DNA from: Azolla caroliniana | Lineage: Eukaryota > Plantae > Polypodiophyta | Direction: 5' to 3' | DNA length: 64,000 nt | NCBI GenBank assembly: GCA_043228905.1 | Contig: JBHGNT010000007.1 | Coordinates: 16,244,001-16,308,000, forward strand | Shown: in pieces, positions 3,078-64,000 of the stretch | Layout of the letters: the number at the start of each line of letters is the position of its first letter | Position numbering within the stretch: position 1 is the first letter of the stretch | Made by a program: the position numbers and the translations under genes | The notes under the pieces: generated by a model | The model's input: the letters and a program-made list of their open reading frames with translations, nothing else | What the model was told of the DNA's origin: nothing | Database searches by the model: none

Positions 3078-3108
<31 letters not shown>

Positions 3109-3279
3109 AGAAGAGAGTTGACAAAAAATAAAGAAGAAGAAGAAAGAAAATACACAGAGACACACAGAGGGCTTATTTATTCTTACGATTTTGATTAATC
3201 ACGTGGATATATATTATCCACGTTCAAGCCAAAAAGGAGGGAGGAGGAGACGGTCAGAGAGCTTCAGATCCGAGGAGCC

Positions 3280-34800: not shown

Positions 34801-34866
34801 TCCGGTCGGGGTTGTCAACCACACGTCTCCTATGCCGGCAATCCGGCACGTACCTTCATTTCCCAT
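31831..34866 (-). CDS. Copia-1 Pol (protease remainder, GAG-pre-integrase, integrase, RT, RNase H)
   Basis: 1011-aa ORF with VHTDVC, IRADNGGEY, NGLAERMNRT, QMDVKTAFLHG, LLYVDDML, FTDSD, STTEAEY and HSRTKHI. Confidence 0.95.
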   Translation of the reverse strand: MGNEGTCRIAGIGDVWLTTPTGCKMLLKDVRHVPEVRLNLISAGRLDDEGYTGSIRNGVMKFSKGSLIVARARKINTLYLMNARLCPEELNVAADTAGELWYKRLCHMSEKGMKRLAEDNLIPVKHVHLEKCTDCLASKQNRTSFHSRPPTRRSAPLELVHTDVCQVETKSHGGAQYFVTFIDDHSRRLWTAPMKTKDQVLSVFKELHARVERESGKKLKAIRADNGGEYRGQFQEYCRSKGIRLEFTVPKTPELNGLAERMNRTIMERVRSMLAHAKLHKGFWAEAMSTATYVINRSPSVPLDGDTPQRVWTGREVSYRHLKVFGCLAYVHVAKDRRGKLDPKTRPCIFLGYGDDEFGYRVWDPVDKKIFRSRDIIFMENKTLADWESEKKMKSSKSTGEDQLYEEQSRPARDRLALEDPAEDGEETEPAEEDENDTGTGPDPEMDSDEEESEEPVTEAPERRYPLRERRAPRRFPEPEHVLLTDEGEPESFEEAKHDTQSRRWLSAMQDEMDSLHENHTYELVELPKGKRALRNKWVFKLKPGDAGNPPRYKARIVVKGFQQKKGVDFDEIFAPVVKMTSIRTVLSIAASMDLEVEQMDVKTAFLHGDLEEEIYMQQPEGFEKKGKEHLVCRLKKSLYGLKQAPRQWYRKFDSFMTDEGYLKTQSDHCVFVKKFEGGDLLILLLYVDDMLIVGRDQVKIRMLKKALHRTFSMKDLGPARQILGMHIIRDRSKKQLWLSQEKYVTKVLKWFNMSEARPVRSTLPANCKLSNKQSPKTKAEKEDMMKVPYASAIGSLMYAMVCTRPDIGYAVGVVSRYMSNPGKEHWNAAKWILRYLKGTANVCLRFGSGKPELDGFTDSDMSADADTSRSTSGYVMTYAGGAVSWQSRLQKTVALSTTEAEYMAAVEAGKEIIWMKDFIRELGIRQEEYRLYCNSQSAIHLAKNAAYHSRTKHIQRRYHWIRERIEDKEFVLTKVHTDENGSDMLTKVLTPDKLEACRKRIGLERHPMPK

Positions 34867-34882
34867 CCGAACACAGCCATGC

Positions 34883-35905
34883 TCACCGGCTGTGTAGGAT
34901 GAGAAGGTATCTTCTTTCTGGGGTCAGGTGGAACGACGCTCCGGAATCGACCAGCCAGGTCGTCTCATCGCCGGCAATGTTTAGCTCACCTTCTTCGGTG
35001 ATGAGCATGATTTCTTCCTCACTTGCCGCGAGTGCCGTCGTTCCTTTCCTGTCCTGCCCTCGCCGATCCGAACCTCTCCGGTCCGTGGCTCCCCGGTATG
35101 CACCGTTTCTCTCCGGTGACTTCTTCGAATCGGTGTCGTCGGATCCGTTGTCTTTTCGGTAATGCCGACAATTCTTTCGGAAGTGCCCCGGCTTCCCACA
35201 GTGGAAGCATGTGGGCCTTCCTCTTGACTGCGACCGGGTCCCCGACTTCTCCCGTCTTTGCGGACTCCGGTTCCGTTGTCTTCCCCGATCCGATTCGGTA
35301 AACAACATCTTCGGATCGGAGGCAGGTTCTTTATCTCTCCGACGCGCTTCTTCGTTCAAAATACTTGTCTTTACCGTTTGTAGGGACAAGTTATCTTCCG
35401 TGCAGGAGGTGCTGAGAGTCACCACCAAGTTCTCCCAGCTTTCCGGCAATGTACACATCAGGATGATGGCTTGCATTGCATCCTCCAACGGGAACTTGAT
35501 CGCCGCAAGCTGGTTCACGAATCCCATGAACGTGCTTACGTGTTCTACCATACTCTCGCCGTCCCGGTACTTGAGGTTCACTATCTTCCTCATCAGGGAG
35601 GTTCGGTTCAACGCATTCTTCCTCTCATAGAGGCCCGACAGCTTCCGCCACATCTCATATGCGTTGGTGTCGTTCGCCACATGTTGTAGAACGCTCACGT
35701 CTACGTATTGCCGAATGGTTGCAACGGCTTTCCGGTTCAGAAGCCTCCATTCCGACTCAAGTACCCCCTTCGGTATTTCCGACCTGTCGATCGGTTCGTA
35801 CAGGTCCCGAACAATCAGAAGATCCTCCATCTTGATCTTCCAGTCGGCGTAATTCTGTGCATTCAGCACCATCATCCCCGGCTGCCCGCTGCCGCCGCCT
35901 TCCAT
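34883..35905 (-). CDS. Copia-1 Gag (CCHC zinc knuckle) and N-terminal half of the aspartic protease; frameshifted from the rest of pol
   Basis: CFHCGKPGHFRKNC knuckle and WLVDSGASFHLTP protease motif. One extra base at ~34906 breaks the frame. Confidence 0.9.
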   Translation of the reverse strand: MEGGGSGQPGMMVLNAQNYADWKIKMEDLLIVRDLYEPIDRSEIPKGVLESEWRLLNRKAVATIRQYVDVSVLQHVANDTNAYEMWRKLSGLYERKNALNRTSLMRKIVNLKYRDGESMVEHVSTFMGFVNQLAAIKFPLEDAMQAIILMCTLPESWENLVVTLSTSCTEDNLSLQTVKTSILNEEARRRDKEPASDPKMLFTESDRGRQRNRSPQRREKSGTRSQSRGRPTCFHCGKPGHFRKNCRHYRKDNGSDDTDSKKSPERNGAYRGATDRRGSDRRGQDRKGTTALAASEEEIMLITEEGELNIAGDETTWLVDSGASFHLTPERRYLLILHSR

Positions 35906-36840
35906 TTTCTGCAGCAGTCGCTCTGATACCAGTTTGTAGAGAAATCGATGCTCCGATTAACCTTCACCACTCGGCCACAACCGAGTAAGCGCGAATCAAT
36001 ACAGCAGAAAATAGGAACCACAGAGAAAGGACACGATTACACAGAGATTAACGTGGAAAACCCTAGACGGGAAAAACCACGGGAGTCCAAGACTCCAAAC
36101 GAACTATGCACAGAGAAGTATACAAATGGCGAGCTGCAAGGCGACGACCTTGAGCTCGTTGTCCTCGCCACAGGCGGCGGAAATACACAGAGGCGTCGAC
36201 CTCCTCCTCTCTCACGCTCTATCTCTCTCACGGCTGCTCTCTCTTCACTCCTCTTGAGTGGAAAAACAGAAAAATGAGTAGCAACAGTAAAACTGTTTGC
36301 CCTAAGTCATATTTATACACATATGACTTTCGGGCTATTTACAACTATAGCCTCAAGGGCCCTTGGCAAACATATTCACAGATATGTCCCCACATCCGGA
36401 TCTCACTCCGGGTACATTCGTCATCCGGCTCCGAAGCCGGGGTCTTCATCATCCGGTTCCGAAACCGAAACCGGGCTTGTCGGCATTCATCTCCGATATC
36501 CGACCATCCCATCCGAAAGGGACCGTAATCCCAACAATATCTACTCTCAAAATGGGGCCCTCAGAACAAGTAGTAACATCAAAAGTTTCCACACTAACAT
36601 TGGCCTTTGTCACAAGAGATTCATACCCTTTAGTCTCAGTGGCGTCTCACTCCACCCACCTTGTATCTCTAGTGTGAACACACTTGTTAACCTAACTATA
36701 TAAGTGGGTAATTGACCTTGTAAAGAAACGTCGATGGGTAATGTAACGTAGTCTCTCTAATTGTTGAGAATCTAACTCAACTTCCCATAGAAAGAGTGTT
36801 CACACTAGTCAGTGGACATCGTACTATGACATTTTTGTAA

Positions 36841-42448: not shown

Positions 42449-43738
42449 TGTCATGATATGACAAAACTCGAACCCATGACCTTATGTTACATGGGTCGAG
42501 CTCTTGACCATTAGACTATATGTTGTAATACAATAAAAATTATTTTCCTTTAAGTTTTATTATAGAAAATTGATGTATGTTCCAAATTTCTCTGGAACAT
42601 TCTAGAAACTTTAGGAGTACTCCTGAGAACACTATAAAAGGAGGCACAAGGCATTATTTCGAACCGAATTGGTTCAACGCCAGTCTTAGCCTCCTAGCTA
42701 CTATTGTATATTCTCTTAACATAATATATATCTCTTTTGTTATCATCATTCTCTCTCTCTCTCTCTCTCTCTCACTCACTATTTCCTTCTCTCGAGAGTT
42801 GTACACCTTATTCATCGACAAAGGTTACAACATTTTATGCTTATACGGGCTATCACCCCCGGTGGTGTGTATTTGAAACCCTAGAGTTACCCACAAATCC
42901 TTGCGGAGAGGATCATTTGGAGCGGTTACGCAAGATACAAGCGGATTTAACTACTCATCTACTTTAAGCTCAACAAACACACAATGTTTACGCGGATCGT
43001 CATTGGCTTCCATCCAGTTTTAACATTGGAGATCGGGTATGGCTACTACGACGACACATCAAGACTACTCGTCCATGCAAGAAGTTGGATTATTGGCGAT
43101 TAGGTCCTTTCCGTATTATCGGAAAAATTAATGATGTTGCTTTTTGTCTCGATCTACCTCCACAACCTCGGATACATCCGGTGTTTCATAGTTCTCTCCC
43201 CAAACCCTATCAAGATAGCACCATCCTAGGTCATATTAAACAACCTCCAGCCCTGATCGCAAAAAGCTCTACTATTTAGTCGATTGGCTAGGATATAGTC
43301 CCAACGAGCATACTTGGGAACCAATAGAGAATGTGACCAATGCTCGTGCTCTTCTTGAAGACTTCCATCGTTAATATCTAGAAAAACCGGGTCCTCAATC
43401 CAAAAAGACTCGTGACACTTGTCGTTTTAAAGGGGGGATAGTGTCATGATATGGCAAGACTCGAACCCATGACCTTATGTTACATGGGTCGAGCTCTTGA
43501 CCATTAAACTATATGTTGTAATACAAGAATATTATTTTTATTTAAGTTTTACTATAGAAAATTGATGTATGTTCCAAATTTCTCTGGAACATTCTAGAAA
43601 CTTCAGGAATACTCTTGAGAACACTATAAAAGGAGGCACAAGGCATTATTTCGAACCAAATCGGTTCAACGCCAGTATTAAGCCTCCTAGCTACTATTGT
43701 ATATTCTCTTAACATAATATATATCTCTTTTGTTATCA

Positions 43739-43774
<36 letters not shown>

Positions 43775-43873
43775 ACTCACTCTTTCCTTCTCTCGAGAGT
43801 TCTACACCTCCCTTAGTACTAATCCTCATCTTTTAGTACTAATTCCTTCTCTGTCTTAGTACTGTTCCTGACA
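42449..43873 (+). mobile_element. Internally deleted chromovirus (Tcn1-like family) with both termini
   Basis: TSD ATTGT (42444-42448 / 43874-43878). A partial 5' LTR (42449-~42810) joins directly to integrase C-terminus/chromodomain remnants (AYTGYHPRW, LGPFRIIGKINDVAF, GYSPNEHTWEP). PPT at 43430-43441; 3' LTR 43442-43873. Confidence 0.92.
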
Positions 43874-44571: not shown

Positions 44572-47000
44572 ACGAGCTCCATTACTTCCTTGGCATCAAG
44601 GTAATTCGAACACTAGTCGAGATATTGATTTCTCAACGACACTACGTTCTCACCTTACTCTACAAGTTCGGAATGACCGAGTGCAAACCCGTGTCTACCC
44701 CTCTCAACCGAAATCTCAACCTCAATGTCGATTCGGGCACAACCGAGTGCGATCCAACTCAATATCGACAACTGATCAACAACCTGATTTATCTAACCAT
44801 CACACTACCCAACCTCAACTATACAATCGGCCTACTTAGCCAATTTATGTAGAACCGACGAAATGATCATCTCGATTGCGCTAAGAGGATACTTCGGTAT
44901 GTTAGTATGACGATGGATTACGACATCATGTATAAGTCGAATACACTTATTCGACTTGAAGGGTACATAGACGTAAACTAGGCCGGTTATAAGGCCGATA
45001 GACGATCCACTTCTGGATTCGTCTTCTCCCTCGGTAGCGGAGCGATCTCCTGGAGCAACAAGAAGCAACTGACTGTCGCATTGTCGAGCATAGAGGCCGA
45101 ATATAGGGGCGCAACTGTCGCCGCGTGCGAAGCTGTGTGGCTCAAACACATTTTGAAGGATGTGGGTGTTCCCATCACGGATCCAATTCACCTCTTCTGT
45201 GACAACATGAGCAACATCTACCTCGCTCGGAACCCGGTATTCCACACACGGACTAAACACATCGAAATGCACTACCACTTCATTTGCGAGCGCGTTCAGG
45301 GCGGCGAAATCGATCCCCAATATATCAGTACAAAGCTTCAAATTGCTGACATCTTTACGAAGGCCTTAGGAGTCAACAAGCTCAGGCAATTCATATTGGG
45401 CCTTGATCTCACGATCTCTACGTTGCCAAGCTTATCGGGGATTACAACAGGTGACACGGAAGCAACCGAGAAGCAGAAGTAACCAACCAGAGGAGTCGAA
45501 GTACGATGAACAACGACCATGAAGCCGAAAAGCCGAACAACCAAGTTGGAAGATTTTGAAAGCCGAACGCCGATTCATCCGAATCGAAGTATTCCGAAGA
45601 CCAAACCGAAACGACTTTTCGACATACAGAAGTTGTGTTCGAAGGGGCGTGTTGAGAATCGAACACAACTTCCCATAGAGAGAGCGTTCACACTAGTAAG
45701 TGGACATCGTACTACGACATTTATGTAATTAGTAGAAAGGGCATTTGCCCTAGACTAGTTGGTATTTAAACCAACCTCTTGTAACCTAGTTACTGTTGGA
45801 TGTAATATACAGTTTCTTGTTTTAGAATTCCCTCTCTCTCTCTCATTCTCTCTCTTGTCTCATGTGCACATACACACATAGTCCTTCCGCTGCATAGAAT
45901 CACTCTTGATTCTTTTCACTAAGCTTAAAACATTTCTCTCCCTGTGCAACTGTCTGTTTTCATCTTTGTGAATTTTGTCATAGTGCATAACTCTATCCTA
46001 GCTTAAAACATTTCTCTCCATGTGCAACTGTCTGTTTTCATCTTTGTGAATTTTGTCATGGTGCATAACTCTATCCTGCTTGCTACTTGTATTGTTTGCT
46101 TCTACTCATTGACAACTCATTGACAAGTCCTCAACCTTCCGCAACATACAACTTCAATACTCAACATTTGGTATCAGAGTGACTTGCAATCCGACGGCAA
46201 CAACATCAACCTGAGAAGATCAAAACCAATAGAAGGAAAGGGCTAGGTTAGCAAATCTCACTTCCTTCAGAATATGGCTTCAACATCCATCACGGGGTTG
46301 GAAATCCAGAAGTTCGGTGGAAAGTACTTTGCCCTATGGAAGGAGATGATGCAAGATACATATTGATCATCCGGTGTCAAATCAAGGTGATAGGACACAA
46401 CAACAAGCCAACCTCGATGTTAGCAGCTGAATAACGCTCCCTGGACAAGAAATCCAGGTCGACCATTCGAATGCATCTGGGCGACAACCTCTACTTCAAC
46501 ATGGCCAGAGAGACATCAACATTTGCCTTGTGGGAGTGTCAGGAATAGTACTAAAACAGAGATGGAATTAGTACTAAAGAACAACAGTACTATTAGTACT
46601 AAGAGGACGGGACTGCGTAAGATTCCCGAGAGAGGAAGTGAGAAGAGGAGAGAGAGAGATAGCGAGAATGAGAGAGAGAGAGAGATGATGACAACAGCTA
46701 ATATATTATGTGAAAAGGTAAGTACAAGCGGCTAAGAGGCTTAAGACTGGCGTTGAACCAATTTGGTTCAAAACAATGCCTTGTTCCTCCTTTTATAGTG
46801 TTTTTAGGAATAATCCTGAAGCTTCTAGAATGTTCCAGAGAGATCTGGAATATACATCAATTTTCTATGATAAAGTATAAATGAAAATAATATTCTACAA
46901 AATACAATTCATAGTCTAATGGTAAGAGCTCGACCCATGTAACATAAGGTCATGGGTTCGAGTCTAGCCATATCATGATACTCATGACACTATCTCCCCC

Positions 47001-50000
47001 TTAAAGACGGCGAGTGGAACGAGTCGACACTAATTGCGGACCGGGTTTGTCCGGATACTTTTGGTGGAAATCAACAAGAAGATCTTGTGCATTGGCAACA
47101 TTCTCGACGGGTTCCCAAGTACGTTCGCTCGGACTATAACCGAGCCAATCGACCAAGTAATAAAGTTTGTTGCGAACAAGTTTGGAATCGAGGATGGCAA
47201 CAACTTCATACTCCGGGCCGACGTCCAACTCCAGCGGGGGCGGCAGTGGTGTCACACGATCGGGAATGGTGTTTGCTTTATAAGGTTCAAGAAGAGAACA
47301 ATGGAAAACCGGATGTATCTGAAGCTGCGGAGGGAGATCAAGGCGGAAGGTGACATCATTAATCTTCCCCGTAATACGGAAAGGACCGAGTTGTCGATAA
47401 TCCAACTTGTCGCACGGTCGAGTAGTCTTGATGTGACTTGATGTGACGACGTAAGAGCCATACTCGATCTCCGATGGCAAAAGAGGAGGGAATCCGATGA
47501 CAATCCGCATAAGTCTTCTGTGTGTGTTGAGCATGACGAAGGTGAGTAGAGAGATCCATCTGGATCTTGCGTAGCCTCTCCAAATGATCCTCGGCACGAG
47601 GGTTGGTAGGTAGCTCCGGAGTGTCGATCCGACCAGCGAGGATGGAAACCAGTATAAGCGAAAAATGGGGAGACTCGAGTCGAGGAGTGAATAGCATTGT
47701 TATACGCAAACTCCGCATAGTGGAGAATCTCGGCCCAATCGTCATGTTGATAACTCAGGAAACACCGGAGATATTGCTCCAGCGTTTGGTTTGTTCGTTC
47801 CGCCTGTCCGTCGGTCTAAGGATGGTAGCCGGAGGAGAGGTTGCAGGAGACCTTGAGCATCTTGAAGAGATGCTGCCAAAATTTGGAGACAAATTGCGGG
47901 CCTCGGTCACTGATAATACTATCTGGGAGGCCATGATGCCGAAATACCTCACGCATAACAAGAGCGGCGGTTTCCTCGCTGGTGATGGCTTTATTACATG
48001 GCACAAAATGTGTCATCTTCGTATATCAATCGACGACGGTTAGGATAGCATCGAACCCCTTCGAGACCGGCAGATCTGTGATAAAATCAAGACAAATAGA
48101 CTGCCATGGCTTACTTGGAATTGGTAAAGGTTCCAACAAGCCATATGGATGGTGTCGTGGCATCTTTGCTCGGCAGCAAGCATCACAGGTCCGAACGTAG
48201 TCGTCGACAAAACGGCGCATGTGGGGCCACCAAAAAGATCGCTGCACTAGCTCCCACGTCTTAGTACTACCGAAATGTCCCGCCGTATGGGTGTCGTGAC
48301 AATGTTGGACGATTTGAAGGCGACAGGAGCAATCGGGGACATATACGCGTTTTTTAAAGAATAAGAAACCATCATGATATTCGAATTGTCGGTAGTCAAT
48401 ACCTGGTTGTTGAGACTGAGAACAGGATGCCCGAGAAGTATCAATGTGCGCTAGGATGTCTTGAGCAAAACTATCCGTCTTCAAGGTTGCACGTATGTCA
48501 TCGGTAATCCGTGAATCCATCGGGGTGTGAAAAATCCGCGTCGTGTGTAATCGTGTTGGTCCCAATATTACTTGCTTTTGATTATCAAATGTTGCGTCAC
48601 CAGGACGAGGTGCAAGATATGATTGCCGTGATAGTGCATCTGCTTTTCCTTGCTGCTTCCCCGGTCGATATGTGATTTTGAAGTCGAAACGGGTGAGGAA
48701 TTGCGCCCACCGAGCTTGCCGTCGATTTAGTACGCGAGCGTTCTGAAAATAAGCAAGATTTTTATGATCGCTAAAGACAATGACCTGATGTGGAGAGCCC
48801 TCTAAGAAATGCCGCCATTGTACAAATGAATCCACGATGGCTAATAACTCCTTGTCATGTATTTCATAGTTGATTTCTGCGACATTGAATTTGCGCGAAT
48901 GGAAAGCCACCGGAGCAACTCTTCTTTATCTCCTTGTTGAGAAAGGATGCTACCGAGGGCGAAATCTGATGCGTCGGCCTCCATGATGAATGGTTTGCTT
49001 GTATCCACATTAGCTAGAATCGGTGTTGATGTAAAGGCTTTCTTAAGATGCCGAAAAGCCATATATGCTTCGATGGACCAAAGAAATGCTTGGCCCTTCT
49101 TCGTAAGTTGTGTGAGAGGTAAAATAATCTTCGAGTAATCCTGTATAAACTTACGGTAGAAGTTAGCAAAACCTAGAAAACATTGTACATCTCGTACCGA
49201 CCGTGGAATTTGCCACTCTAGTACAGTTTGGATTTTAGCTGGATCCATGGAGATGCCCTTTGAGGAGATGACGTAGCCTAGAAATTCCACTTGCTTGCAG
49301 TCAAAGCTACATTTTTCTAGCTTGGCATAAAGACCATTCTCGCGGAGTCGCTTTAGTACTAATAGTACATGAGAATCGTGCTCTTCCTGGGTCTTCGAAT
49401 AAATCAACAGATCATCCAGATAAATGATCAAACAGATATCCAAGAGGTCTCTGAATATATCATTTGCCATGTGTTGGAAGACTGTAGGTGCATTGGTTAG
49501 GCCAAATGGCATAACAGTATACTCGAAATGCCCATACCGCGTGCGAAAAGCGATCTTCCACTCATCTCCCGGTCGGATCTGCACGAGATTATACGCTCCT
49601 CGTAGGTCGATTTTAGTAAAAAACTTGGCACCATTAACTCGCTCTAAAAGACTTGATATAAGAGGAAGTGCGTACCTATTCCGGATGGTGGCTTTATTCA
49701 ATCCGCGGTAATCAACGACAAGACGAAGTGAGCCATCTTTCTTCTTGACAAAGAAGATGGGTGCACCGGCCGGAGATTTCGAATGACGGATGAACCCGCT
49801 TGCCAAGTTCTCCTCTATGTAGGCTCGAAGGACTTCTAACTCGGTGGGTGATAACTTGTAAATTGGTCCCCATGGTGGCTCGGTTCCTGGTTGTAAATCG
49901 ATGGGACAGTCATAGGGACGGTGATGAGGAAGGGTACCAGCTTTTACCTTGTCAAATACATCGGCATAAGGATGATATTTTGCTGGAAGTTGTACTGAGG

Positions 50001-50601
50001 AGTCCTTTTTAATAGTGCTGGAAGGATGTATTGATATGGCAAATAGGAACATTGCCTCCTTGGGTCCTTCTTCGCGTAGTTGATGGAGTGAAATGGTCGA
50101 AACTCGGTGAGTTGATTCTTGGGGTGGTCGATATCGGACTTCTCTTGTTCTCCAATCTATGGCTGGATTATGTAATTCAAGCCAAGGTAATCCTAGGACA
50201 ATGGGATGCTCTGGACTACTAATTATATTAAATGATATTATACACACAAAACTACCTAGGACAACTACTAATTATATTAAATGATATTGAATGGGTTCTG
50301 ATTCTTCTACAATATTCCCGGAAGCAATGGGACGACCATCAATGACCACTACAGATGCGGGACAAGGAAGTTTTCTTAAGGATATCTGAGAAGCTTGGGC
50401 AAAATTTCGATCCATGAAACAGGAATTAGCTCCGGAATCTAAAAGTGCTAGGACGGGTACTGGGGGAGTACTTTTAGTACTAACAATGACTTGGGCTAGG
50501 AACACATTGCTAACTTGCTTGGAAGGAATGGAACCACTAATGGGCTGTACAGATCTAGGGCTGCTGTCCAACCAAATGGCTCCTATTTTGGCTGGACTCA
50601 A
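47001..50601 (-). pseudogene. Chromovirus Pol (PR, RT, RNase H, integrase, group I chromodomain), frameshifted
   Basis: LLDSGANSCFMD; VMPFGLTNAP; YLDDLLIYS; EADASDFALG; NYEIHDKELLAI; CLDFITDLP; SDRGPQF; chromodomain [36 protein letters not shown]. Split across several ORFs, including by a small tandem duplication at ~50212-50290. Confidence 0.93.
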
Positions 50602-51755
50602 TCGTTTAACTCTTCATCTAACTGAGTAAGGATTTCAAATTTATTTGAGATACTTGGGCTATTAGTACTATGAATACTATCTGACACTCTATTAGTACTA
50701 TTAATACTATCAGACACTCCGAAGGGAAGAATTGACTCGGGTTTCGTACAGGCGACGATTTGATTTACCTATCTTCTTGGCCTATGGGGACAATTGATGG
50801 CGATATGTCCTGGTCCACCGCAATAAAGACATAATCGATTGGCACGTCGTCGTTGCTTTTCTTCTTCCGATAACGGGCCGCGTCGACGCATGGTATCGAT
50901 CTCCATCGGTGTCGAAGTATTTGCTTGAGGTATGTCTCGTGCAAACGGTTTAGCCACGACTGCGGTGTAAGTGGGCTCTGGCCTAGAGCGTGGTATCTGT
51001 AATTGACGTTCTGAACGCTGTTCGAAAAGGCGGTTGTCACATCGAACTGCTCGACTGATTGCCTCCGTAAGAGACTTTGGTTCTTCGGGGAAAGTTAGAA
51101 GTAGATCTTTAACATCGTTTCGCAAGCCATAGCGAAACTGCTCCATTAGTGCTTGATCATCCCAGGGTATATCTGAAGCAAGTAGGCGGAAATCAACCGC
51201 GTAGGCAGAGGCTGGACGATTGCCTTGACGCAATCGCTGGATCTTGTTGATCGCCGTCTTGTTGCTGTCGGTGTCTCTAAAGCAGGCTTTAAACTTACCA
51301 ATAAAATCTTCAAAGTTATTAAGCAAGGGCGATTGTTTTTCTAGAAGCGGAGCGAACCATGCCAAGGCTGAGCCGCTAAGTAGCGTGCCAATTAGGCCGA
51401 CTCGAGATGCATCAGTGGGATATCGGGAAGGATGCATCTGGATGACTAAGCGTACCTGATTAAGGAATCCTCGGAATTGCGAACACGTTCCATCAAATTT
51501 CATAGGAAGTCCAATCTTGGGCTCTTTATGAAATCCTTGGGGACTGGATCCTTGTTGTTGCAACGCTGCTTCGAGTTGTTGTACCCATAACGCAAACTCC
51601 CCATGTTGTTGTTGCGTTTGTTGTTTTTCTAGAGCGATTTGTTGCAGATCCCCTATAAGCCGTTGGTTTTCTTGTTCCAGGGCAACAAACTTTTCTTTTA
51701 GGCACTGTAGCTCGGAGAAAACGGATTGATATTCTTGGGCGCTAACAGTAGCCAT
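50598..51755 (-). CDS. Chromovirus Gag (CCHC knuckle), with a probable mutational TAG at 50769-50771 and natural stop at 50598-50600
   Basis: EPKIGLPMKFDG, LRQGNRPASAYAVDFR, PMEID and CLYCGGPGHIAINCP. The frame stays open for 56 more codons after the TAG, up to the frameshift site. Confidence 0.88.
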
Positions 51756-53649
51756 AGTATAGGGAAAAGGGTAGGAGGATGAGGGAGAGTGACAAGTAGG
51801 CTAGAGGAAAATTGGTTCAAACTGTCAGGAATAGTACTAAAACAGAGATGGAATTAGTACTAAAGAACAACAGTACTATTAGTACTAAGAGGACGGGACT
51901 GCGTAAGATTCCCGAGAGAGGAAGTGAGAAGAGGAGAGAGAGAGATAGCGAGAATGAGAGAGAGAGAGATGATGACAGCAACTAATATATTATGTGGAAA
52001 GGTAAGTACAAGAGGCTAAGAGGCTTAAGACTGGCGTTGAACCAATTTGGTTCAAAACAATGCCTTGTGCCTCCTTTTATAGTGTTTTTAGGAATAATCC
52101 TGAAGCTTCTAGAATGTTCCAGAGAGATCTGGAATATACATATCAATTTTCTATGATAAAGTATAAATGAAAATAATATCCTACAAAATACAATTCATAG
52201 TCTAATGGTAAGACCTCGACCCATGTAGCATAAGGTCATGGGTTCGAGTCTAGCCATATCATGATACTCATGACAGGGAGAAGCTCTAGGCCGTTTATGA
52301 AAAGAAATCATGTTCATCAAAATTCATATTGATATGACAGTTACTCAAATTTATGAAGATGAGAGAGACGGATTCAGCGACCTCCCACATCAACACCTTC
52401 AGCCGGGTGTTGTTCGAATTCTCCTCCCAAGGGATCAACTTTGAAGAAGACGAACTTAAAGCCCTTGCTCTCCTTTCAAGCTTGTCGGTGAGTTGGGAGG
52501 TATTCTACATGTCATTTGCCAATAGTTGTCCAAATCTCAATTTGGATGAGACAACCAGACAAGTCCTCATTGAGGATATTCGGCGAAAATCAATGGGCTT
52601 TACCATCGATGATTCGGAAAAAGCCCACAAATCGGCCGAGCTAATCGGAAGAGCTGGCTGAAGTACCAGTAGAGGCCGAGAAGGAAGGATAATCGATAAC
52701 GGTCGAAGTCGAGGAATAGTCGATCAAGTGCTTTCTGCACCCATTGCAAAAGTCTGGTCACAATGTTTCCGAGTGTTGGTCGATAAAGAGAAAGGAGAAC
52801 GCTTGGTGATTCGATCTGACACAAGGAAAATCCGACTTGAATCGCAAAAAGTTTGGTCACAATGTTTTCGAGTGCTGGTCAATAAAGGGAAAGGAGAACG
52901 GTTGGCGATTCAATTTGACACAAGGACAATTCAGCTTGAATCGTTCTCCTACCAGCAACCAAGTCAATGTTGTTGAATCTAAGTCAGAAGTCCTCTCACT
53001 TGGAGACTTGTTGACCTGAGAGATCCTATATAGTGCGCAAGATGCATGAAAGTGGCTACTGGACTCTAGCGCCACATTTCATGTGACCCCCAACATAGAA
53101 TGGTTCTCGAACTATTCGATCGTAGCCGGTGGCATAATCCAACTCCGCAATGGGTAGGAGTGTGTAATCAGGGGCATCGGAGAGGTTCCAATCCCATTGG
53201 CAAATGACAATTCAATAATCTTGCACCAAGTCTGACATGTAGCATCGTCTTGTTAGACCAAAGCTGGGTATTGAACGACTCTTAGCGAGTCATCATGGAT
53301 GATTAGCTGAGGAAACATGAAAATCGGGTGTGGATGCGAGCACAATAACCTGTATATGCTAATGGCGATCAATCTAGAGGGCATAATGAATGTAGACAAA
53401 TCACAAGATTCAAACCTATGGCATTGCCAACTTGGCCATATGTCACAAACCGGACTGAACCTGCTGATGGCGATTGGCTACATCCCGAAGCTCCAAATGA
53501 AGACAGACTTCTGTGAGCATTGTCATTACTGGAAACAGACTAGAAGTCTGCACTCTCTCCAATTACGAGACAATACGACAACCCTTAGAACTGGTCACAT
53601 CGATATATGTGGGCCGATGCCTAAAAGGTCACTAGGAGGCTCCTAGTAC

Positions 53650-56600
53650 TGTGCGAAATAGTGCTCGGCCACAATCGAGTCTTAAACACTGAATGGAAGA
53701 AATAAAATAGAAAGCGGGAAATAAGATGACATGGTATGTTTACATGGAAAACCCTAATTGGGAAAAACCATGGGATCCCACAGACCCGAACTATCACTAT
53801 GTGATAAAGAATACAATGTGAGACTCAGAGGCAACAACCTCTTGCTCTATCTCTTCGTCAACCGACGGTTACAATAGAAACAAGTTTTGTTTCTCTTTCG
53901 CTTTGTCTCTCTCTATTCAACAATAATAATAACAACTCATACGTGTTGAGAGACAAGCTCAACATCAGCCGGATCAGCTGAAGAAGCCGAGGACCGGATC
54001 GGTTGGGACCGATCGGTTAGGCCGAATGTGTAAACCGGTACACAGACCGGTGCGTAGGTAGGGCCGGATCGGTGCGTAAACCGGGAGGCCTTAATGAGCA
54101 TTGAAGTACTGTCTGTACTTCAGTCAGTCCTTCTAGGACTTGTATAAAAGTGTTCATTGAACACACATATGTATAGAGTGTGGTGAATAGAGATTGAGTA
54201 CCCTTTTGAATATAGTTCTTGTTTCATCTCTCTCTCTCTGTCTGTCTCTCCCGCGTATACTGCGTAAGCTCAAGCTCTCCATTACACCTAAGTTTTCTTC
54301 CTTCTGTTCGCTCTTAATACTTGCTTCCGCACGTTACTTTTTACCTGGTATCAGAGCGTGAGGGTTGAGAACCTCTCTGCAGCCGACATAGCTTGACGAA
54401 GAAGAACAAGAAGAACGATGGATAGAGGCATGGCGAGCTCGCTTCCAACAGAGAAGCTCGACAGAACCAACTACGCGTCTTGGTCCTACAAGATGCACCA
54501 GTACCTGCTCAGGCACGGCTACTGGAGTTATGTCGAAGGAGCTAATGACGCGGCACTCGAATCAACACACAAAGACTTCCCGTCGTGGGAGCAATCGGCG
54601 AGCAGGGTATTATACTACTTCTCGTCGTGTGTGGGCGAACAACTATTGAGCTATGTTCGGGATGCAAAGATGCCGAAGGGTGCGTGGGAAAATCTGAAGA
54701 AGATTTTCCCAGCGAGCACCACAGCCAGGAAGCTTCAGCTCCGACAGGAGTTGAGCAACCTACGACAACGCGACTTGTCGATGGCTGACTATACCTCGTA
54801 GATCAAGGATATCTGCGACTCCCTCTCCTCCATAGAGGTGAACATCGAGGAGAGCGAGATGGTCCAGATCTGTCTCGGAGGTTTGGCGTCGAAGTTCGGA
54901 GCGTTCCGAACGTCTGTGTGTACCCGGGAGAATACGCCGTCCTTTTTCGACTTACAGTCAATGCTCCTGGTAGAGGAGAACCACGCGGGTGCGTCTACAA
55001 GCACGCACACCAACAACAGAATGTTGTACACGGAGGGAGATAGGCCCCGTGGACGTGGAGGACGAGGCGAGTCGGCGCGCAATGGAGGCGGCCGACGAGA
55101 TCAAGGAAGAAGGCACCGAAGTGATGCCGACAGCAACTCCGGACCCTCTGGAAACAGGGGGAGTCGAAGCGATGAGAACCGGCAAGGGAAGGCCATCGCG
55201 GAGTGCTGGTACTGTGGCAAGAAAGGCCACAGGGAAAGTGAGTGCTGGAAGAAGCGCGCCGATTCGGAGAGAACCGGTTCCGGAAATGGCTCCGGACATA
55301 CCGACAAGGGAAATCGGCAGTGATCGCACTACGCCGAAGACTCCAGGAGAGCCGGAGAAGGGTCTGCCTTCGTGACGAGACACGAAGCAAACTCAATGAA
55401 ACGGACCACCCCGAGATCGGACGAGGTGTGGTACGTAGACTCCGGCGCGTCAAACCACATGACGAGCCATAAGGAGTGGTTCTCGTACCTTGAAAAACCG
55501 ATACAACCTGGAGTAGTCGCAATTGGAGACGACACTCCGTATCCGATCGCGAATGTCGGAGAAGTCCCCCTTAGCCATGTCGGGCAGAAAGGGAAACTCA
55601 TGAACGTGTTGCACGTTCTGACAATCACGAAGAACTTGGTCTCGGTCGGAGAGATCGTCGACCAAGGGATGGAGGTTCAGTTCACACACCTCGGGTGCTT
55701 CATTGAGGAAGAAGGCCGTGTGATTGCGCAAGGGCGCAGAGACGGGAGGATGTTCATCCTCGATTCCACTGACGGCGGCACCGCAATGTTCGCGAAGGGA
55801 CAAAAATCCGAGTCGGACATCGATTTGTGGTACAAGCGGATAGGCCACGTCATCTACCAACGGCTTCAAGATCTGCAATCGAAACAGGTAGTGTTCGGAT
55901 TGCCCAAATTTAGTGGCCGGAAGGCACAAATTTGTGAAGCCTGCCAGTTCGGGAAGCAACACTGACTTGCTTTCCCAAACGAGCGAAACTGGAGCCGGAA
56001 CAAGCTCGACCTTATACACTCCGATGTATGGGGGCCGGCACAAAACGTTAGTCTTGGCAGGAGCCGATATTTCGTCTTCTTCATCGACGACCACACGCGG
56101 CACACGTGGATCTACCTCATTGAGAGGAAGAGTGAAGTCTTCGACTGTTTCCGGAACCTCAAAGGGTTCGTGGAAACGGAAACGGGATGAAGGATCAAGT
56201 GCCTGCGGTCGGATGGCGGGAAAGAGTATTTTTCTGGTCAATTCAACGGATATCTACAACAAATGGGAATTCGGCACGAATTCAGTTGTAGATACACGCC
56301 GAAGCAAAACGGCGTGGCTGAGAGGAAGAATCAGTCAGTTGTGGAAGCGGCACGGGCAATGCTGGAGGAGAAGAGCTTGCCCAAGTTCTACTGGGCCGAG
56401 GCGGTAAGGACCGCGGTATACATCCAGAACCGGATCGGAGACAAAGTGTCGGCGCACGAGCTATATTTCGGAACGAAGCCGAACTTGTGACACTTGAGGG
56501 TGTTTGTTAGCATTGCGTATATGCATGTACCGAAGGAGAAAAGGAGGAAGCTGGACGCAAAGGCCGAGAAATGCATCTTGGTCGGTTACTCGGACGAGCA

Positions 56601-59600
56601 GAAGGGTTATAAGTGCTATAACCCTCGCACCAAACAAGCGCGTGTCAACCGCGACGTTGTGTTTGACGAGTCCGCGTCCTGGTACCAGCCCCCGACTTCG
56701 AACCCCGACTCCAATCCGAGCTCTGACGATAAGGTCAAAGAGGCCGAGATGCCTCCGGATGAGCCCGAAATCGAGACCCGCGAAGAGAGTTCGATTTCAC
56801 TCCGTTTAAGTGGACCGATTGGACGGCTGAGTCGGTACGATCAGTCCGATGAAGAGCCAGCGAGTAGTGGAGACTCGGCCGTGCATTCCCCGCGCAGGAA
56901 GCCGATAGGAACGAGTCAGACCGACGCGAGTCCGACTCCGAGGGAACCGGTGACGGGTCTTTAAAGGTGAAGTCCGCGTCGACCGAGAAGGCCTCGACAT
57001 TGGCTAATGTGAGATTACGCCGATCTACCCGCCAGAAGAACCCTGTTTTGCGGTTCGGATACAACGAGTACATGGCGCATCATTATGCGTACATGACCCG
57101 TGTAGCGGAAGTGCGTGAGCCGGAGAGCTATGCAGAAGCGGCTAAAGATGCGAATTGGCGTGCGGCGATGGAGGAAGAGATGCATGCATTGGCGGAGAAC
57201 GAGACCTGGGACCTGGTTGACGCACCAACAGGGGTAAAACCGATCGGGTGTAGGTGGTTGTACAAGGTCAAGTACAACACCGATGGTTCGGTCAACCGGT
57301 ACAAGGCTCGGCTAGTGGCAAAGGGCTACGCGCAGAAATACGGCATCGACAACGATGAGACATTTGCGCCGGTTGCGAAAATTACGACCGTCTGTGTTTT
57401 GCTCGCAGTAGCTGCAGTGAAGGGGTGGCACTTACACCGGATGGACATAAAGAATGCGCTCCTGCAAGGTGACCTTGAGGAACAGGTGTACATGGTACAA
57501 CCCCCCAGATTTCACTCTGGAACGAACTCCTCGGCAATATGCCGACTGAAGAAGTCCCTTTACGGACTGAAGCAAGCCCCGCGTGCCTGGAACGCGAAGA
57601 TCACGCAACAACTGCGTCGGATGGGCTTCGTCACGTCAAAATCAGACTCTTCCCTGTTCATCCAGAAAGGTTGACTCAGACCAGTTAGTATTTTACTATA
57701 TGTTGATGACTTGGTCATCACCGGCGCCGACATAGGTGAAATCGACCGTATGAAGCTCCAGCTTGTGGCATCGTTCGACATGAAGGTTCTGGGGGACCTT
57801 CATTACTTCCTCGGGATCGAAGTGATCCGTACCCCCGAAGGCATATTAATCAGCCAACGCCATTATGTGCTGAGTATGCTCTTCAACTTCGGGATGGCCG
57901 ACTGTAAGTCCGTCTCGACTCCTCTAGACAGAACCGTCAAGCTTCATCCCGATACGGGAAAGGTATGTGACCCGACGAGGTTCCGACAAATTGTCGGAAG
58001 CCTCATATACTTGACCATCACCCGACCCGACCTCAGTTATCTGGTCGGAGTGATCAGTCAGCTCATGGTGCGACCTACCGAGGAGCACCTCCAGTGTGCG
58101 CAACGCATACTTCGGTATGTCAACGGCACTAAGGACCGGGGACTGCTATATTGGACCGGTGCAGCCGCGCAGTTAGTCGGCTACACCGATGTTGATTGGG
58201 CTGGCAACGCCGCCGATTGCCGATCCACGTCTGGATACGCGTTCTCCCTCGGGAGTGTCGTGATCGCGTGGAGCAGTAAGAAGCAGCCGACAGTTGCACT
58301 ATCGAGCACCGAAGCTGAGTACCGAGGAGCGGCTGTCGCGACATGTGAGGCCATATGGTTGAAGCGGCTACTTAAGGACCTGCAAGAGGAGGTGTCAGAT
58401 CTGACGACCATCTACTGCGACAACCTCAGCAGCATCTAGCTTGCGAAAAACCCCGTTTTTCACGCACGGACCAAGCACATTGAGGTGCACTACCATTTCG
58501 TCCGTGAGCGTGTCCTATCCGGTGAAGTCGAACTTCAGTACGTTCCGACGGATCGGCAGACTGCCGACATCTTCACCAAGCCTCTTGGTCTGGACAAGTT
58601 GCGGCAATTCTCAGGTGCGCTCGGATTGCGCCATCTCGACGTGCCAAACTTGAGGGGGAGAACAGTCCAGAACGACCAAGAAAGGCAGCAGGAAAGGAGC
58701 GGAGACCGCGACACCACCGAGTCGGTTGATTCGGTTGTCGAGTTCGACTTCGGATCGGCTGAAGATGCCGAGGGCGGACCCGCGGAAAAGTTCGGAAGCG
58801 GACAGAAGGGGAGCAGATGAAGGAGAGAGCCGAAGCCAACCATGCATGGGGAAGATGATGCCATCGAGGGCGAGAAGACCGAAGACAAGTTTGAGACAGC
58901 CAACTCGGATGAGAGCGAAAACCGATCGGAGGTAGCCGAGTCGGTTCGGATGTTTGATTCAGATACGCTGAATCAACAGAGGCCCAAGCGGAAGAAAAGG
59001 CAGCAGAAGAAGCGTCAACACCGCAACAGCAGAAGAGCTGATAAGGGCCACATGAGCAGACAAGCCGACCGGAAGGGTCGAAGTGCGTGGAGTCGAACAG
59101 GTCGTGGAGCGCGAATGAGGCGTGAAGCCAGGAGGAACCGGAGCTGTGAGCCCGAAGATCCCGAAGAGCCTCAAGTTGAGCTTGAGGGGGAGTGTTGAGA
59201 GACAAGCTCAACATCGGCCGGATCGGCTGAAGAAGCCGAGGACCGGATCGGTTGGGACCGATCGGTTAGGACGAATGCGTAAACCGATACGCGGACCGAT
59301 GCGTAGGTAGGGCCGGATCGATGCGTAAACCGGGAGGCCGTTAGGAAAGATATTCCGTGAGGAATATATTTGGAAGTTAGTGTAGGAGCCCTTAATGAGC
59401 ATTGAAGTACTGTCAGTACTTCGGTCAGTCCTTCTAGGACTTGTATAAAAGTGTTCATTGAACCCACATATGTATAGAGTGTGGTGAATAGAGATTGAGT
59501 ACCCTTTTGAATATAGTTCTTGTTTCATCTCTCTCTCTCTCTTTCTCTCCCGCGTATACTGTGTAAGCTCAAGCTCTCCATTAAACCTGAGTTTTTTTCC

Positions 59601-59690
59601 TTCTGTTCGGTCTTCATACTTGCTTCCGCACGTTACTTTTTACAATACGAAACACTATTTTCCCTAGTTATATTTATACTCATATAACTT
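53650..59690 (-). mobile_element. Copia-1-family LTR fragment (53650-53943 and ~59650-59690) split by Copia-4
   Basis: Starts TGTGCGAAATAGTGCTCGGCCACAA and shares TGGAAAACCCTA and AAAACCATGGGA motifs. It resumes after Copia-4 with TTATATTTATAC, then is truncated. Confidence 0.75.
53944..59644 (+). mobile_element. Full-length Ty1/copia element (Copia-4, related to Copia-2) with multiple nonsense mutations
   Basis: LTRs at 53944-54345 (402 bp, ~50-bp deletion) and 59193-59644 (452 bp). TSD ATACG (53939-53943 / 59645-59649). PBS TGGTATCAGAGC at 54346; PPT at 59181-59192. Motifs: gag MDRGMASSLPTEKLDRTNYASW, CWYCGKKGHRESEC, WYVDSGASNHMT, NGVAERKNQ, YVDDL and SSTEAEYRG. Confidence 0.97.
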
Positions 59691-61336: not shown

Positions 61337-61444
61337 TGTCAGAAATAGTACTAGAACAGAGAGAGAATTAGTACTAGAGAAGGGAAGTACTATTAGTACT
61401 AAGAGGACGGGACCGCGTAAGACTCCCGAGAGGGAGGAAAGAGA

Positions 61445-61483
<39 letters not shown>

Positions 61484-64000
61484 TGAGGACGAGAGAGAGA
61501 GAGATGATGATAACAGATGATGTATTATAGGAAGAGTAAGTATAAGATGGCTATGAGGCTTAAGACTGGCGTTGAACCAATTTGGTTCAACATAATGCCT
61601 AGTGCCTTCTTTTATAGTGTTCTCAGGAGTAATCCTGAAGCTTCTAGAATGTTCTAGAGAAATCTGGAATATACATTAATTTCCTATAATAAAACTTAAA
61701 TGAAAATAATATCCTACGTATTACAATAGATGGTATAATGGTAAAGAGCTTGACCCATATAACATAAGGTCATGCGTTCGATTCTTGCCATATCATGACA
61801 CTATCTCCCCCTTAAGACGACGTGTGGAATGAGTCGGCGCTGATTGCGGATCGGGTATGTCCGAATACTTTCGGTGGAACTCAGCAAGAAGATCCTGAGC
61901 ATTGGCAACATGCTCGACGGGTTCCCAAGTACGTTCATTTGGACTATAGCTGAGCCAATCGACCAAATAATAAAGTTTGTTGCGAACAAGTTTGGAATCA
62001 AGGACGACAACAACTTCATACTCCGGCCGGGCCAGCTTCCAACTCAAGCGAGGGTGGCGGCGGTGTAACACGATCATGAATAGTGTTTGCTTTACAAGGT
62101 TCAAGAAGAGAGCTATGGAAAACCGGATGTATTTGAAGATGCGGAGGGAGATCAAGACAGAACGTGACATCATTAACCTTACTAGTAATACGGAAAGGAC
62201 CGAGTCGTCGATAATCCAACTTGTCGCACGGTCGAGTAGTCTTGATGTGACGATGTAAGAGCCATAGTCGATCTCCGATCGCAAAAGAGGAGGGAAGCCG
62301 ATGGCGATCCGCATAAGTCTTCGGTGTGTTGAGCATGAAGAAGATGAGTAGAGAGATCCATCTGGATCTTGCGTAGCCTCTCCAAATGATCCTCGGCACG
62401 AGGATTGGTAGGTAGCTTCAGGGTGTCGATCACTGACCAACGAGGATGAGAACCGATCTAACCGTAAAATGGGGAGACCCAAGTCGAGGAGTGAACAACA
62501 TTATTATATGCAAACTACGCAAAGTGGAGAAATCTCGGCCCAATAATCCTGTTGATAACTCAGAAAACACCACAGATATTGTTCCAGCGTTTGGTTTGTT
62601 CGTTCCGCCTACCCATCGATCTGGGGATGGTAGCCGGAGGAGAGGTTGGAAGAGACCTTGAGCATCTTGAAGAGATGCTGCCAAAATTTGGAGACGAATT
62701 GAGGTCCTCGGTCATTGATGATACTGTCTAGGAGGCCATGATGCCGAAATACCTCAGCCATGACAAGGGCGGCGGTTTCCTCGCTAGTGATGGCCTTAGT
62801 ACACGGCACAAAATGTGCCATCTTAGTATATCGATTGACGAAGGTTAAGATAGGATCTAACCCCTTCCAAACCGGCAGATCTGTGATAAAATCAAGACAA
62901 ATAGACTGCCATGGCTTACTTGGAATCGGTAAGGGTTCCAACAAGCCATATGGATGGTGTCGGGGCATCTTTGCTTGGCAGTAAGCATCACAAGTTCGAA
63001 CATAGTCGTTGACAAAACCTCGCATATGGGGCCACCAAAAAGATCGTTGAACGAGATCCAACATCTTAGTACTACCGAAATGTCCCGCCATATGGGTGTC
63101 GTGACAATTTTGGACGATTTGAAGGAGACAGGAGCAATCAGGGACATATACAAGATTTTTAAAGAATAACAAACCATCATGATATTCGAATTGTTGGTAG
63201 TCCATACCTGGTTGTTGAGATTGGGAACAGGATGCCCAAGAGGTATCAATGTGCGCCAGAATGTCTTGAGCAAAATTGTCTGTCTTCAAGTTCGCACGTA
63301 TGGCATCGGTAATCCGGGAATCCATTGGGGTGTGAAAAATCTGCGTTGTGTGCAATCATGTTGGTCCCAAGATTACTTGCTTTTGATTTTGAAGTCAAAA
63401 TGCGTGAGGAATTGAGCCCACTGACCTTGTCGTTGATTTAGCACCCAAGCGTTCTGGAAATAAGCAAGATTTTTGTGATCACTAAAGATGACCTGATGTG
63501 GAGAGCCCTCTAAGAAATGCCGCCATTGCACAAAGGAATCCACGATGGCTAATAACTCATTGTCATGTATTTCGTAGTTGATTTCCGCGGCATCAAATTT
63601 GCGCGAATGAAAAGCCACAGGATGTAACTCTTCTTTATCAGATGCTACCGAGGGCGAAATCCGATGCGTCAGCCTCCATGATGAATGGTTTGTTTGTATC
63701 CACATGAGCTAGAATAGGAGCTGATGTAAAGGCTTTCTTAAGATGCCGAAAAGCCATGTCCGCTTCATTGAACCAAAGAAATTCTTGTCCCTTCTTCGTA
63801 AGTTGTGTGAGAAGTAAAATAATCTTCGAGTAATCCTGTATAAACTTGCGTTAGAAGTTAGCAAAACCTATAAAACATTGTACATCTGGTACCGACCGTG
63901 GAATTTGGCACTCTAGCACAATTTGGACTTTAGCTGGATCCATGGAGATGCCCTTTGAGGAGATGATGTAGCCTAGAAATTCCACTTGCTTGCAGTCAAA
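61337..64000 (-). mobile_element. Second large Tcn1-like chromovirus copy (3' LTR 61337-61800, chromodomain, integrase, RNase H, RT end), continuing beyond the window
   Basis: LTR and pol are collinear with the 46537-52275 element; PPT at 61801-61813; frameshifts and an internal deletion near 63385. Confidence 0.95.

What the first reader, a model, noticed from the sequence alone, without database searches (positions are those of the whole stretch)
46912..46964. Chromovirus LTRs carry a conserved antisense tRNA-like A-box/B-box (Pol III promoter-like) module at the U3 end
Seen: all five LTRs of this family contain, antisense to the element and close to the LTR terminus, an A-box and B-box with tRNA-like spacing (~43-44 nt start to start). 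The copies are TAGTCTAATGG..GGTTCGAGTC (46912/46955 and 52198/52241), TGGTATAATGG..CGTTCGATTC (61731/61775), and minus-strand copies at ~42465-42518 and ~43458-43511. The most diverged copy changes bases mostly at degenerate consensus positions (TRGYNNARNGG, GTTCRANNC), and the B-box CpG survives in all five copies. The central part also forms a hairpin (CTCGACCCATG/CATGGGTTCGAG). Established: Cassandra TRIMs carry 5S-derived Pol III promoters in their LTRs, and TFIIIC-bound B-boxes can act as chromatin barriers. Inference: an autonomous-type chromovirus has captured a tRNA/SINE head and kept it, either to make an outward/antisense Pol III RNA or as a TFIIIC insulator. I do not know of this being described for a chromovirus, but could not check.
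Basis: partly seen in the sequence, partly recalled or inferred. Interest (0 to 1): 0.82.

Follow-up and report, generated by a model that had tools for sequence, protein, structure and literature searches.

The report
Backwards tRNA promoter caps chromovirus LTRs
A jumping-gene family in what is likely a fern carries, back to front at the outer edge of its terminal repeats, a tRNA-derived sequence that no longer folds as a tRNA but keeps both polymerase III promoter boxes and forms a 20-base-pair hairpin, and it likely serves as an outward-facing promoter or chromatin barrier beside the element's own predicted heat-shock promoter, although no binding or RNA has been shown.

Summary
Observation confirmed. 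Five LTRs (three insertions) of a high-copy, self-priming, Tcn1-type chromovirus carry an antisense, tRNA-length module ending about 5 nt inside the U3 terminus. A strict A+B box pair arose in 0 of 20,000 LTR shuffles; a tRNA profile ranks 16 of 17 copies above background. It is not a tRNA: the cloverleaf is 55% paired, and a 20-bp hairpin (95% paired, no covariation) overlies it. In contigs of three DNA runs, common A-box variants fall only at degenerate positions (0 of 5 fixed sites against 8 of 13 others, p=0.03 post hoc), and B box plus terminus show no variant at 4% or more. Fixed A-box sites are not significantly better kept than AT-rich U3 (p=0.12), and there is no fixed terminator or usable RNA data. 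Best reading (0.45): a maintained outward-facing TFIIIC/Pol III site beside an HSE/TATA promoter; rivals are a replication hairpin or a relic. Closest known: Helenus (sense-strand, non-autonomous). Ten literature searches found no autonomous, antisense case. This scan noted similar LTR-borne tRNA boxes in fungal genomes before. New variant of a known kind; function untested.

The parts
46905..46976 (+). tRNA-derived module in E1 3' LTR (antisense to element); A box 46912-46922, B box 46956-46964, hairpin 46919-46971
52191..52262 (+). module in E1 5' LTR, facing outward into flanking DNA; A box 52198-52208, B box 52242-52250
61724..61795 (+). module in E2 3' LTR; both boxes kept, hairpin lost
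43447..43518 (-). module in E3 3' LTR; reference for family-wide variant counts
42454..42525 (-). module in E3 5' LTR; B box C61>T
46846..46904 (+). AT-rich U3 stretch (17% GC) upstream of the module; possible TFIIIB site shared with the Pol II promoter (inferred)
46818..46835 (-). heat-shock-element-like array of four alternating nGAAn units (consensus recalled) in E1 3' LTR; 5' LTR copy at 52102-52119
46790..46797 (-). TATA box of the element's predicted Pol II promoter, 33 nt upstream of the self-primer
52036..52048 (-). predicted self-primer (5' end of genomic RNA) in E1 5' LTR; pairs 12 bp with the PBS
51808..51822 (-). primer-binding site complementary to the LTR self-primer
46990..47004 (-). 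polypurine tract abutting the U3 terminus
46537..52275 (-). E1: full-length chromovirus, LTRs 46537-46989 and 51823-52275 (8 substitutions in 451 nt); gag-CCHC, RT, RNase H, integrase zinc finger, SH3, chromodomain; pol broken into several frames
61337..64000 (-). E2: 3' LTR 61337-61800, chromodomain and integrase; runs off the window
42449..43873 (+). E3: internally deleted copy (truncated 5' LTR, end of pol, PPT, 3' LTR 43442-43873) with 5-bp TSD

Best explanation
The LTRs of this Tcn1-type chromovirus, predicted to be self-priming, carry back to front at the outer U3 edge a tRNA-derived sequence that no longer folds as a tRNA but keeps its A and B boxes under a 20-bp hairpin, and it likely works as an outward-facing TFIIIC/Pol III promoter that would hold open and insulate the neighbouring predicted heat-shock/TATA promoter. 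Shown: the anatomy, tRNA likeness, loss of the cloverleaf and the variant pattern. Inferred: (1) origin by capture of a tRNA (gene or RNA) just inside the terminal 5 nt, possibly by a template switch soon after PPT-primed plus-strand initiation, with later replacement of the anticodon arm by an inverted copy of the T arm; (2) TFIIIC binds the boxes and places TFIIIB on the AT-rich stretch, 10-70 nt from the HSE, giving a back-to-back Pol III/Pol II promoter pair; (3) this would help an element whose type I chromodomain likely steers it into H3K9-methylated chromatin to stay inducible; (4) any RNA would be a hairpin-headed read-through of variable length (outward from 5' and solo LTRs, antisense over PPT and chromodomain from 3' LTRs), not a defined small RNA.
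For: Box pair beyond chance. Whole-module tRNA profile match: 16 of 17 copies above the best background hit, 8 of 17 matched from the A box to the T arm. In contigs of three DNA runs, variants at 10% or more hit 0 of 5 fixed A-box sites but 3 of 6 degenerate ones and 5 of 7 upstream ones (one-sided p=0.03; p=0.09 at the 4% cut), all consensus-compatible; B box 0 of 9. In 16 single copies not selected on the A box: fixed sites 4 of 80 cells off, all singletons, against 17 of 96 at degenerate sites (p=0.008, cells not independent), a rate like the HSE (10 of 230) and TATA (2 of 81). Two copies that lost the hairpin (E2, L011 second copy) keep both boxes. Module covered in runs of five organism labels and in subfamilies 12-14% apart. 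The element has a self-primer (12-bp duplex), so the module is not needed as primer.
Against: Fixed A-box sites are not significantly better kept than AT-rich U3 (4 of 80 against 89 of 929, p=0.12; shared variants 0 of 5 against 23 of 72, p=0.16). B-box invariance includes its degenerate sites and lies inside a 29-nt invariant block with the terminus and hairpin arm, so it is not box-shaped. G18/G19 also pair in the hairpin; only T8, G10 and A14 are fixed sites outside it. A/G and T/C variants are transitions, the commonest change. C61>T in 3 of 17 copies. No fixed T-run: first T4 at +52 to more than +600. Upstream CAA and TATA-like motifs sit off the plant tRNA-gene positions. The family is young, so few changes have accumulated anywhere.
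Confidence: 0.45

Rival explanations
1. The selected feature is the 20-bp hairpin, which starts about 10 nt after the PPT in genomic RNA or cDNA (a role in plus-strand priming, strand transfer, packaging or integrase end processing); the boxes are a by-product of tRNA origin.
For: Hairpin 94.6% paired in 15 copies, z about -4.6 on both strands of E3 3' LTR. Contig variants at 10% or more hit 2 of 40 paired against 12 of 28 unpaired sites (p=0.0002), including the single bulge and the loop. The T-stem 3' strand in the LTRs differs from the more tRNA-like form in L011 in the direction that improves the hairpin.
Against: No covariation beyond shuffles (418 of 500 reach it). The paired set is confounded with closeness to the terminus; the 5' arm alone is no better kept than AT-rich U3 in single copies (21 of 240 against 89 of 929, p=0.40). 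It does not explain T8 and A14 conservation. The Selaginella Tcn1 LTR has the same self-priming layout and, by eye, no such module.
Confidence: 0.25
2. A passenger: a tRNA captured once in the ancestral LTR and copied since, with apparent conservation due to youth of the family and terminal (integrase) constraint.
For: Cloverleaf dead (55% paired; anticodon stem 24%, acceptor 45%); no ARAGORN or Rfam tRNA hit; borderline statistics; variation rises with distance from the terminus; PMC10886601 says 'not a few' Repbase LTRs hold tRNA-like parts.
Against: Common variants alternate with invariant sites inside the A box in the pattern of the consensus, next to a 4-nt stretch with 21-40% minor alleles; the invariant terminal block is 29 nt, longer than the 10-20 nt usually needed by integrase (recalled).
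Confidence: 0.24
3. The module is a mobile landing pad for Pol III-targeting retrotransposons (Ty3/Tj1-like), as this scan proposed for gut-fungal LTRs.
For: Geometry would allow it; Tj1, itself self-priming, inserts 1-10 bp upstream of Pol III starts (PMC4600332, passages).
Against: No insertion upstream of the A box in 5 of 5 window LTRs; of 11 loci, L004 has a foreign junction 3 nt upstream, L001, L007 and L011 junctions 30 nt or more upstream, L010 is cut short; no shared offset.
Confidence: 0.06

Closest known systems
Helenus / TRIMp3 (Kojima 2024, PMC10886601; abstract, parts 2-3 of 6, Introduction, Discussion, searched passages and 4 supplement passages read)
   Same: tRNA-derived sequence with conserved A and B boxes inside both LTRs; unlikely to be a working tRNA; 5-bp TSD; one plant case (Selaginella).
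   Different: Helenus are 311-1263-bp non-coding TRIMs with tRNA primer sites; in the consensus LTRs I saw the tRNA is sense and near the LTR's 3' end, where it can drive the element. Here it is antisense, at the U3 terminus, in a 5.7-kb coding chromovirus with its own Pol II promoter and self-primer. The paper argues that autonomous partners must use Pol II and are unlikely to share such LTR sequence.
Cassandra TRIM (as described in PMC10886601, Introduction)
   Same: Pol III promoter inside plant LTRs; present in ferns.
   Different: 5S-derived, non-autonomous, drives the element's own transcript.
Tcn1 clade / Tf1-sushi chromoviruses (PMC2864245 passages and whole supplement 1; PMC6317226 passages)
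   Same: gag, RT, RNase H, integrase, aromatic-cage chromodomain; no tRNA PBS; self-priming complement (also visible by eye in SM-Tcn1).
   Different: SM-Tcn1 LTR shows no such module (by eye; motif search). Tcn1 was reported from mosses and clubmosses and not amplified from ferns; the host here looks fern-like.
Foamy-virus LTR Pol III miRNA cassettes (PMC3993851, passages)
   Same: Autonomous retroelement with A/B-box Pol III unit and hairpin inside the LTR beside a Pol II promoter.
   Different: Those have a T-run terminator at the hairpin base and shown small RNAs; here there is no fixed terminator, the unit is tRNA-derived and antisense, and no RNA is shown.

Membership tests
Helenus/TRIMp3 | tRNA-like sequence with A and B boxes in both LTRs | tested here: met
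Helenus/TRIMp3 | non-autonomous, under about 1.3 kb, no coding capacity | tested here: not met
   E1 is 5.7 kb with gag/pol domains
Helenus/TRIMp3 | Pol III unit oriented to transcribe the element | tested here: not met
   antisense and outward-facing; Helenus orientation seen
Helenus/TRIMp3 | tRNA primer-binding site | tested here: not met
   PBS pairs with the element's own LTR
Tcn1 / Tf1-sushi chromovirus | Ty3/gypsy domain order with C-terminal chromodomain | tested here: met
   (no protease hit in the ORFs scanned)
Tcn1 / Tf1-sushi chromovirus | chromodomain with aromatic-cage residues | tested here: met
   translation read by eye beside SM-Tcn1
Tcn1 / Tf1-sushi chromovirus | self-priming PBS | tested here: met
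   12-bp duplex, TATA 33 nt upstream; predicted, not assayed
Tcn1 / Tf1-sushi chromovirus | placement in the clade on an RT tree with named references | not tested
   best hits are unnamed (up to 86%); named ones are mostly amphibian, some fungal, algal and one angiosperm; no tree built
tRNA gene | cloverleaf with paired acceptor and anticodon stems | tested here: not met
   ARAGORN 0; Rfam none to E=10
tRNA-derived SINE | tRNA head followed by body, tail and TSD | tested here: not met
   tRNA 3' end abuts the LTR terminus
tRNA-derived SINE | dispersed copies free of the LTR | tested here: inconclusive
   L011 holds the terminal 98 nt twice in a 333-bp tandem unit, ending at the LTR terminus
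Foamy/BLV-type Pol III hairpin cassette | A/B boxes with a stable hairpin in the LTR | tested here: met
Foamy/BLV-type Pol III hairpin cassette | T-run terminator at the hairpin base | tested here: not met
Foamy/BLV-type Pol III hairpin cassette | Pol III transcript and small RNA | not testable with these tools
   no RNA holder listed; contigs only

The most novel reading that the evidence does not exclude
An autonomous, heterochromatin-seeking chromovirus has domesticated a host tRNA gene as a portable TFIIIC barrier and outward Pol III promoter at its LTR edge, keeping its heat-shock promoter inducible in silent chromatin and seeding a fern genome with many new Pol III sites that make hairpin-headed RNAs into neighbouring DNA and antisense to its own PPT.
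Probability: 0.3. Interest if true: 0.8.

Novelty: new variant of a known kind. Interest (0 to 1): 0.52.

Why it matters
Known small-RNA-derived LTR promoters sit in non-coding TRIMs and drive the element itself. A back-to-front unit in a coding element cannot do that, so if it is kept it does something else. A barrier or open-chromatin role would address how chromodomain-guided elements stay expressible after landing in heterochromatin, and it is directly testable with box-only and hairpin-only mutants. It would also make solo LTRs a source of Pol III sites, and it shows a route by which Helenus-like LTRs could arise from an autonomous parent.

Tried and rejected
No whole genome was held, so no genome-wide LTR set. 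ARAGORN and Rfam found no tRNA. Viral and prokaryote contig scans gave nothing. No RNA holder listed; one run guessed as RNA gave 2 contigs at depth about 3: uninformative either way. The ESM Atlas gave no answer. Two of the 22 profile tRNAs were picked for an 18-nt match to the module, a mild circularity. B-box CpG survival is no evidence: 6 of 6 unselected copies keep it, the mirror CpG is lost in 4 of 17, and contig shares do not separate them (under 4% against 2-6%); 11 of the 17 copies were fetched by an exact 27-nt match over the B box and cannot test it. Plant-type upstream CAA (13 of 16 copies) is 7 nt later and the TATA-like motif 4 nt or more earlier than in PMC3082873: not counted. 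Six copia LTR stretches in the window have no B box. Depth peaks over self-primer, HSE and module were treated as a weak hint only. L009 (deletion in the module) and L010 (cut short) were left out of alignment A2.

Full report
Setting. The window is plant DNA: an intron-rich gene with RCC1 repeats, nested copia and gypsy elements, and a plastid petB fragment in which four positions that are Leu in the spinach-type protein read Ser, as expected for unedited plastid DNA of a plant with heavy C-to-U editing (ferns, hornworts, lycophytes; recalled). A fern-like host is likely but not established; earlier notes on this genome say fern or moss. No whole genome was held.

The element. E1 (46537-52275, minus strand) has 453-bp LTRs with 8 substitutions in 451 aligned nt, a 5-bp TSD, a PPT, and gag-CCHC, RT, RNase H, integrase, SH3 and chromodomain hits, pol being broken into several frames. 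E2 (61337 to the window end) and the deleted E3 (42449-43873, own TSD) are 12-14% away in the LTR. The five LTRs are therefore three insertions. The PBS pairs over 12 bp with an LTR stretch 33 nt below a TATA box, the self-priming layout of Tf1/sushi and Tcn1 elements (PMC6317226, PMC4600332, passages). Twenty nt above the TATA lies an array of four alternating nGAAn units, a heat-shock-element-like motif (consensus recalled). The chromodomain has the aromatic residues of type I by eye. Clade membership was not tested by a tree.

The observation. A strict pair is present in 4 of 5 LTRs and nowhere else in the window, and in 0 of 20,000 LTR shuffles; a loose pair is in 5 of 5, with 2 unrelated hits against 1.0 expected, and in 96 of 20,000 shuffles. 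A profile from 22 phage class I tRNAs run on 88,628 nt ranked 16 of 17 module copies above the best other hit (E 0.32); E2 scored E 0.71; 8 of 17 matched from the A box to the T arm. The module is tRNA-length and its position 72 lies 5 nt from the LTR end (14 nt in E1, which has a 9-nt terminal duplication).

What it is not. ARAGORN and Rfam see no tRNA. On 15 aligned copies the cloverleaf is 55% paired: D stem 80%, T stem 81%, acceptor 45%, anticodon stem 24%. The D-stem 3' strand and anticodon 5' half are instead a near inverted copy of the T arm, giving a 20-pair hairpin, 94.6% paired, without covariation beyond shuffles, z -4.0 to -5.0 in the E1 and E3 3' LTRs and lost in E2 and one L011 copy. 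There is no SINE body, tail or TSD.

Is it kept? The family is high-copy: 2,500-4,300 contigs per run were laid on 486 nt in four runs, and the module is covered in runs of five organism labels. Laying three DNA runs on E3's U3 end (all 30 variant rows shown) gave no variant at 4% or more from the terminus through the B box (43440-43470). Variants cluster in the hairpin loop, its bulge and closing pair, at A-box positions 9, 11, 12 and 16 (all allowed by the consensus), and in the four bases before the A box; G10 varies at 1-7%. At the 10% cut, fixed A-box sites vary in 0 of 5 against 8 of 13 degenerate and upstream sites (p=0.03; 0.09 at 4%; 0.055 for unpaired sites only), and paired sites in 2 of 40 against 12 of 28 unpaired (p=0.0002, confounded with the terminus). 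In 16 single copies, not chosen on the A box, fixed sites are off in 4 of 80 cells (all singletons), degenerate sites in 17 of 96, AT-rich U3 in 89 of 929, HSE in 10 of 230, TATA in 2 of 81, hairpin 5' arm in 21 of 240; fixed against degenerate p=0.008, fixed against AT-rich p=0.12, 5' arm against AT-rich p=0.40. All tests are post hoc, on few sites and related sequences, and contig depth is a rough weight. The pattern leans towards a maintained A box but does not prove it.

Mechanism. Facing outward, the unit cannot make the element's genomic RNA, and the element needs no tRNA primer. There is no fixed terminator: the first T4 is +52 to more than +600 from the A box in the window and +77 to +539 in 11 loci, against a defined small RNA of the foamy-virus kind (PMC3993851, passages). 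What fits best is a DNA-level role: TFIIIC on the boxes and TFIIIB on the 17%-GC stretch next to the HSE and TATA, a back-to-back promoter pair that would act as barrier or opener (inferred; 0.45). Rivals are a replication hairpin beside the PPT (0.25), a passenger (0.24) and a landing pad (0.06; no common insertion offset in 16 places examined). The geometry, tRNA 3' end nearest the PPT and antisense, is what a template switch onto a tRNA just after plus-strand initiation would leave, but no CCA is seen at the junction, so capture of a gene is equally open.

Comparison. Helenus (PMC10886601) is the closest kind: tRNA boxes in LTRs, but sense-strand, in non-coding TRIMs with tRNA primer sites; that paper notes that 'not a few' Repbase LTRs hold tRNA-like parts, without describing the non-TRIM ones in the parts I read. 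The Selaginella Tcn1 LTR lacks the module by eye. Ten searches (listings and abstract starts) found no antisense tRNA module in an autonomous chromovirus LTR; the library lacks most subscription papers and Repbase. PMC5911963, PMC3082873 and PMC13578239 were read as passages only. Earlier scan notes report LTR-borne tRNA boxes in fungal genomes; they are unchecked leads.

Verdict. Real, non-random and not found in print in this form; a new variant of a known kind with a testable but unproven role. Interest 0.52.

Noticed in passing
window 46818-46835 and 52102-52119 (-): Four alternating nGAAn units 20 nt above the TATA box in the chromovirus LTR, kept across copies (10 of 230 cells off): likely a heat-inducible Tcn1-type element in a fern-like plant.
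   Followed up: partly
L011 2517-4655 and 5980-6536: A 712-aa ORF with Penelope-type RT motifs by eye (no Pfam hit) after a 609-aa ORF; 1.3 kb downstream a 333-bp AT-rich tandem unit with palindromes holds the terminal 98 nt of this LTR twice, with a more tRNA-like T stem.
   Followed up: partly
L001 400-512: A 5' LTR cut down to about 110 nt (U5 end joined to the module), lacking HSE, TATA and self-primer, beside the gag leader: a possible step towards a Helenus-like derivative, or a plain deletion.
   Followed up: no
window 6281-6514: Plastid petB fragment with Ser codons at four conserved Leu positions, consistent with unedited plastid DNA of a heavily editing plant.
   Followed up: partly
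window 9689-23067: Exons of an RCC1-repeat gene with a downstream exon that looks HECT-like by eye (no Pfam hit): possibly a HERC-type ligase.
   Followed up: no
window 46972-46989 and 52258-52275: Both E1 LTRs carry a 9-nt duplication at the U3 terminus that forms a small extra palindrome, absent from E2 and E3.
   Followed up: no
window 31219-36537, 52276-53700, 53943-59643: Near-intact copia (LTRs 99.3% alike) and other nested copia copies; E1 sits beside a decayed copia gag-pol.
   Followed up: no
PMC2864245 supplement 1 (SM-Tcn1): SM-Tcn1, reported to lack evidence of self-priming, shows by eye a PBS complementary to a stretch below its TATA-like box.
   Followed up: no
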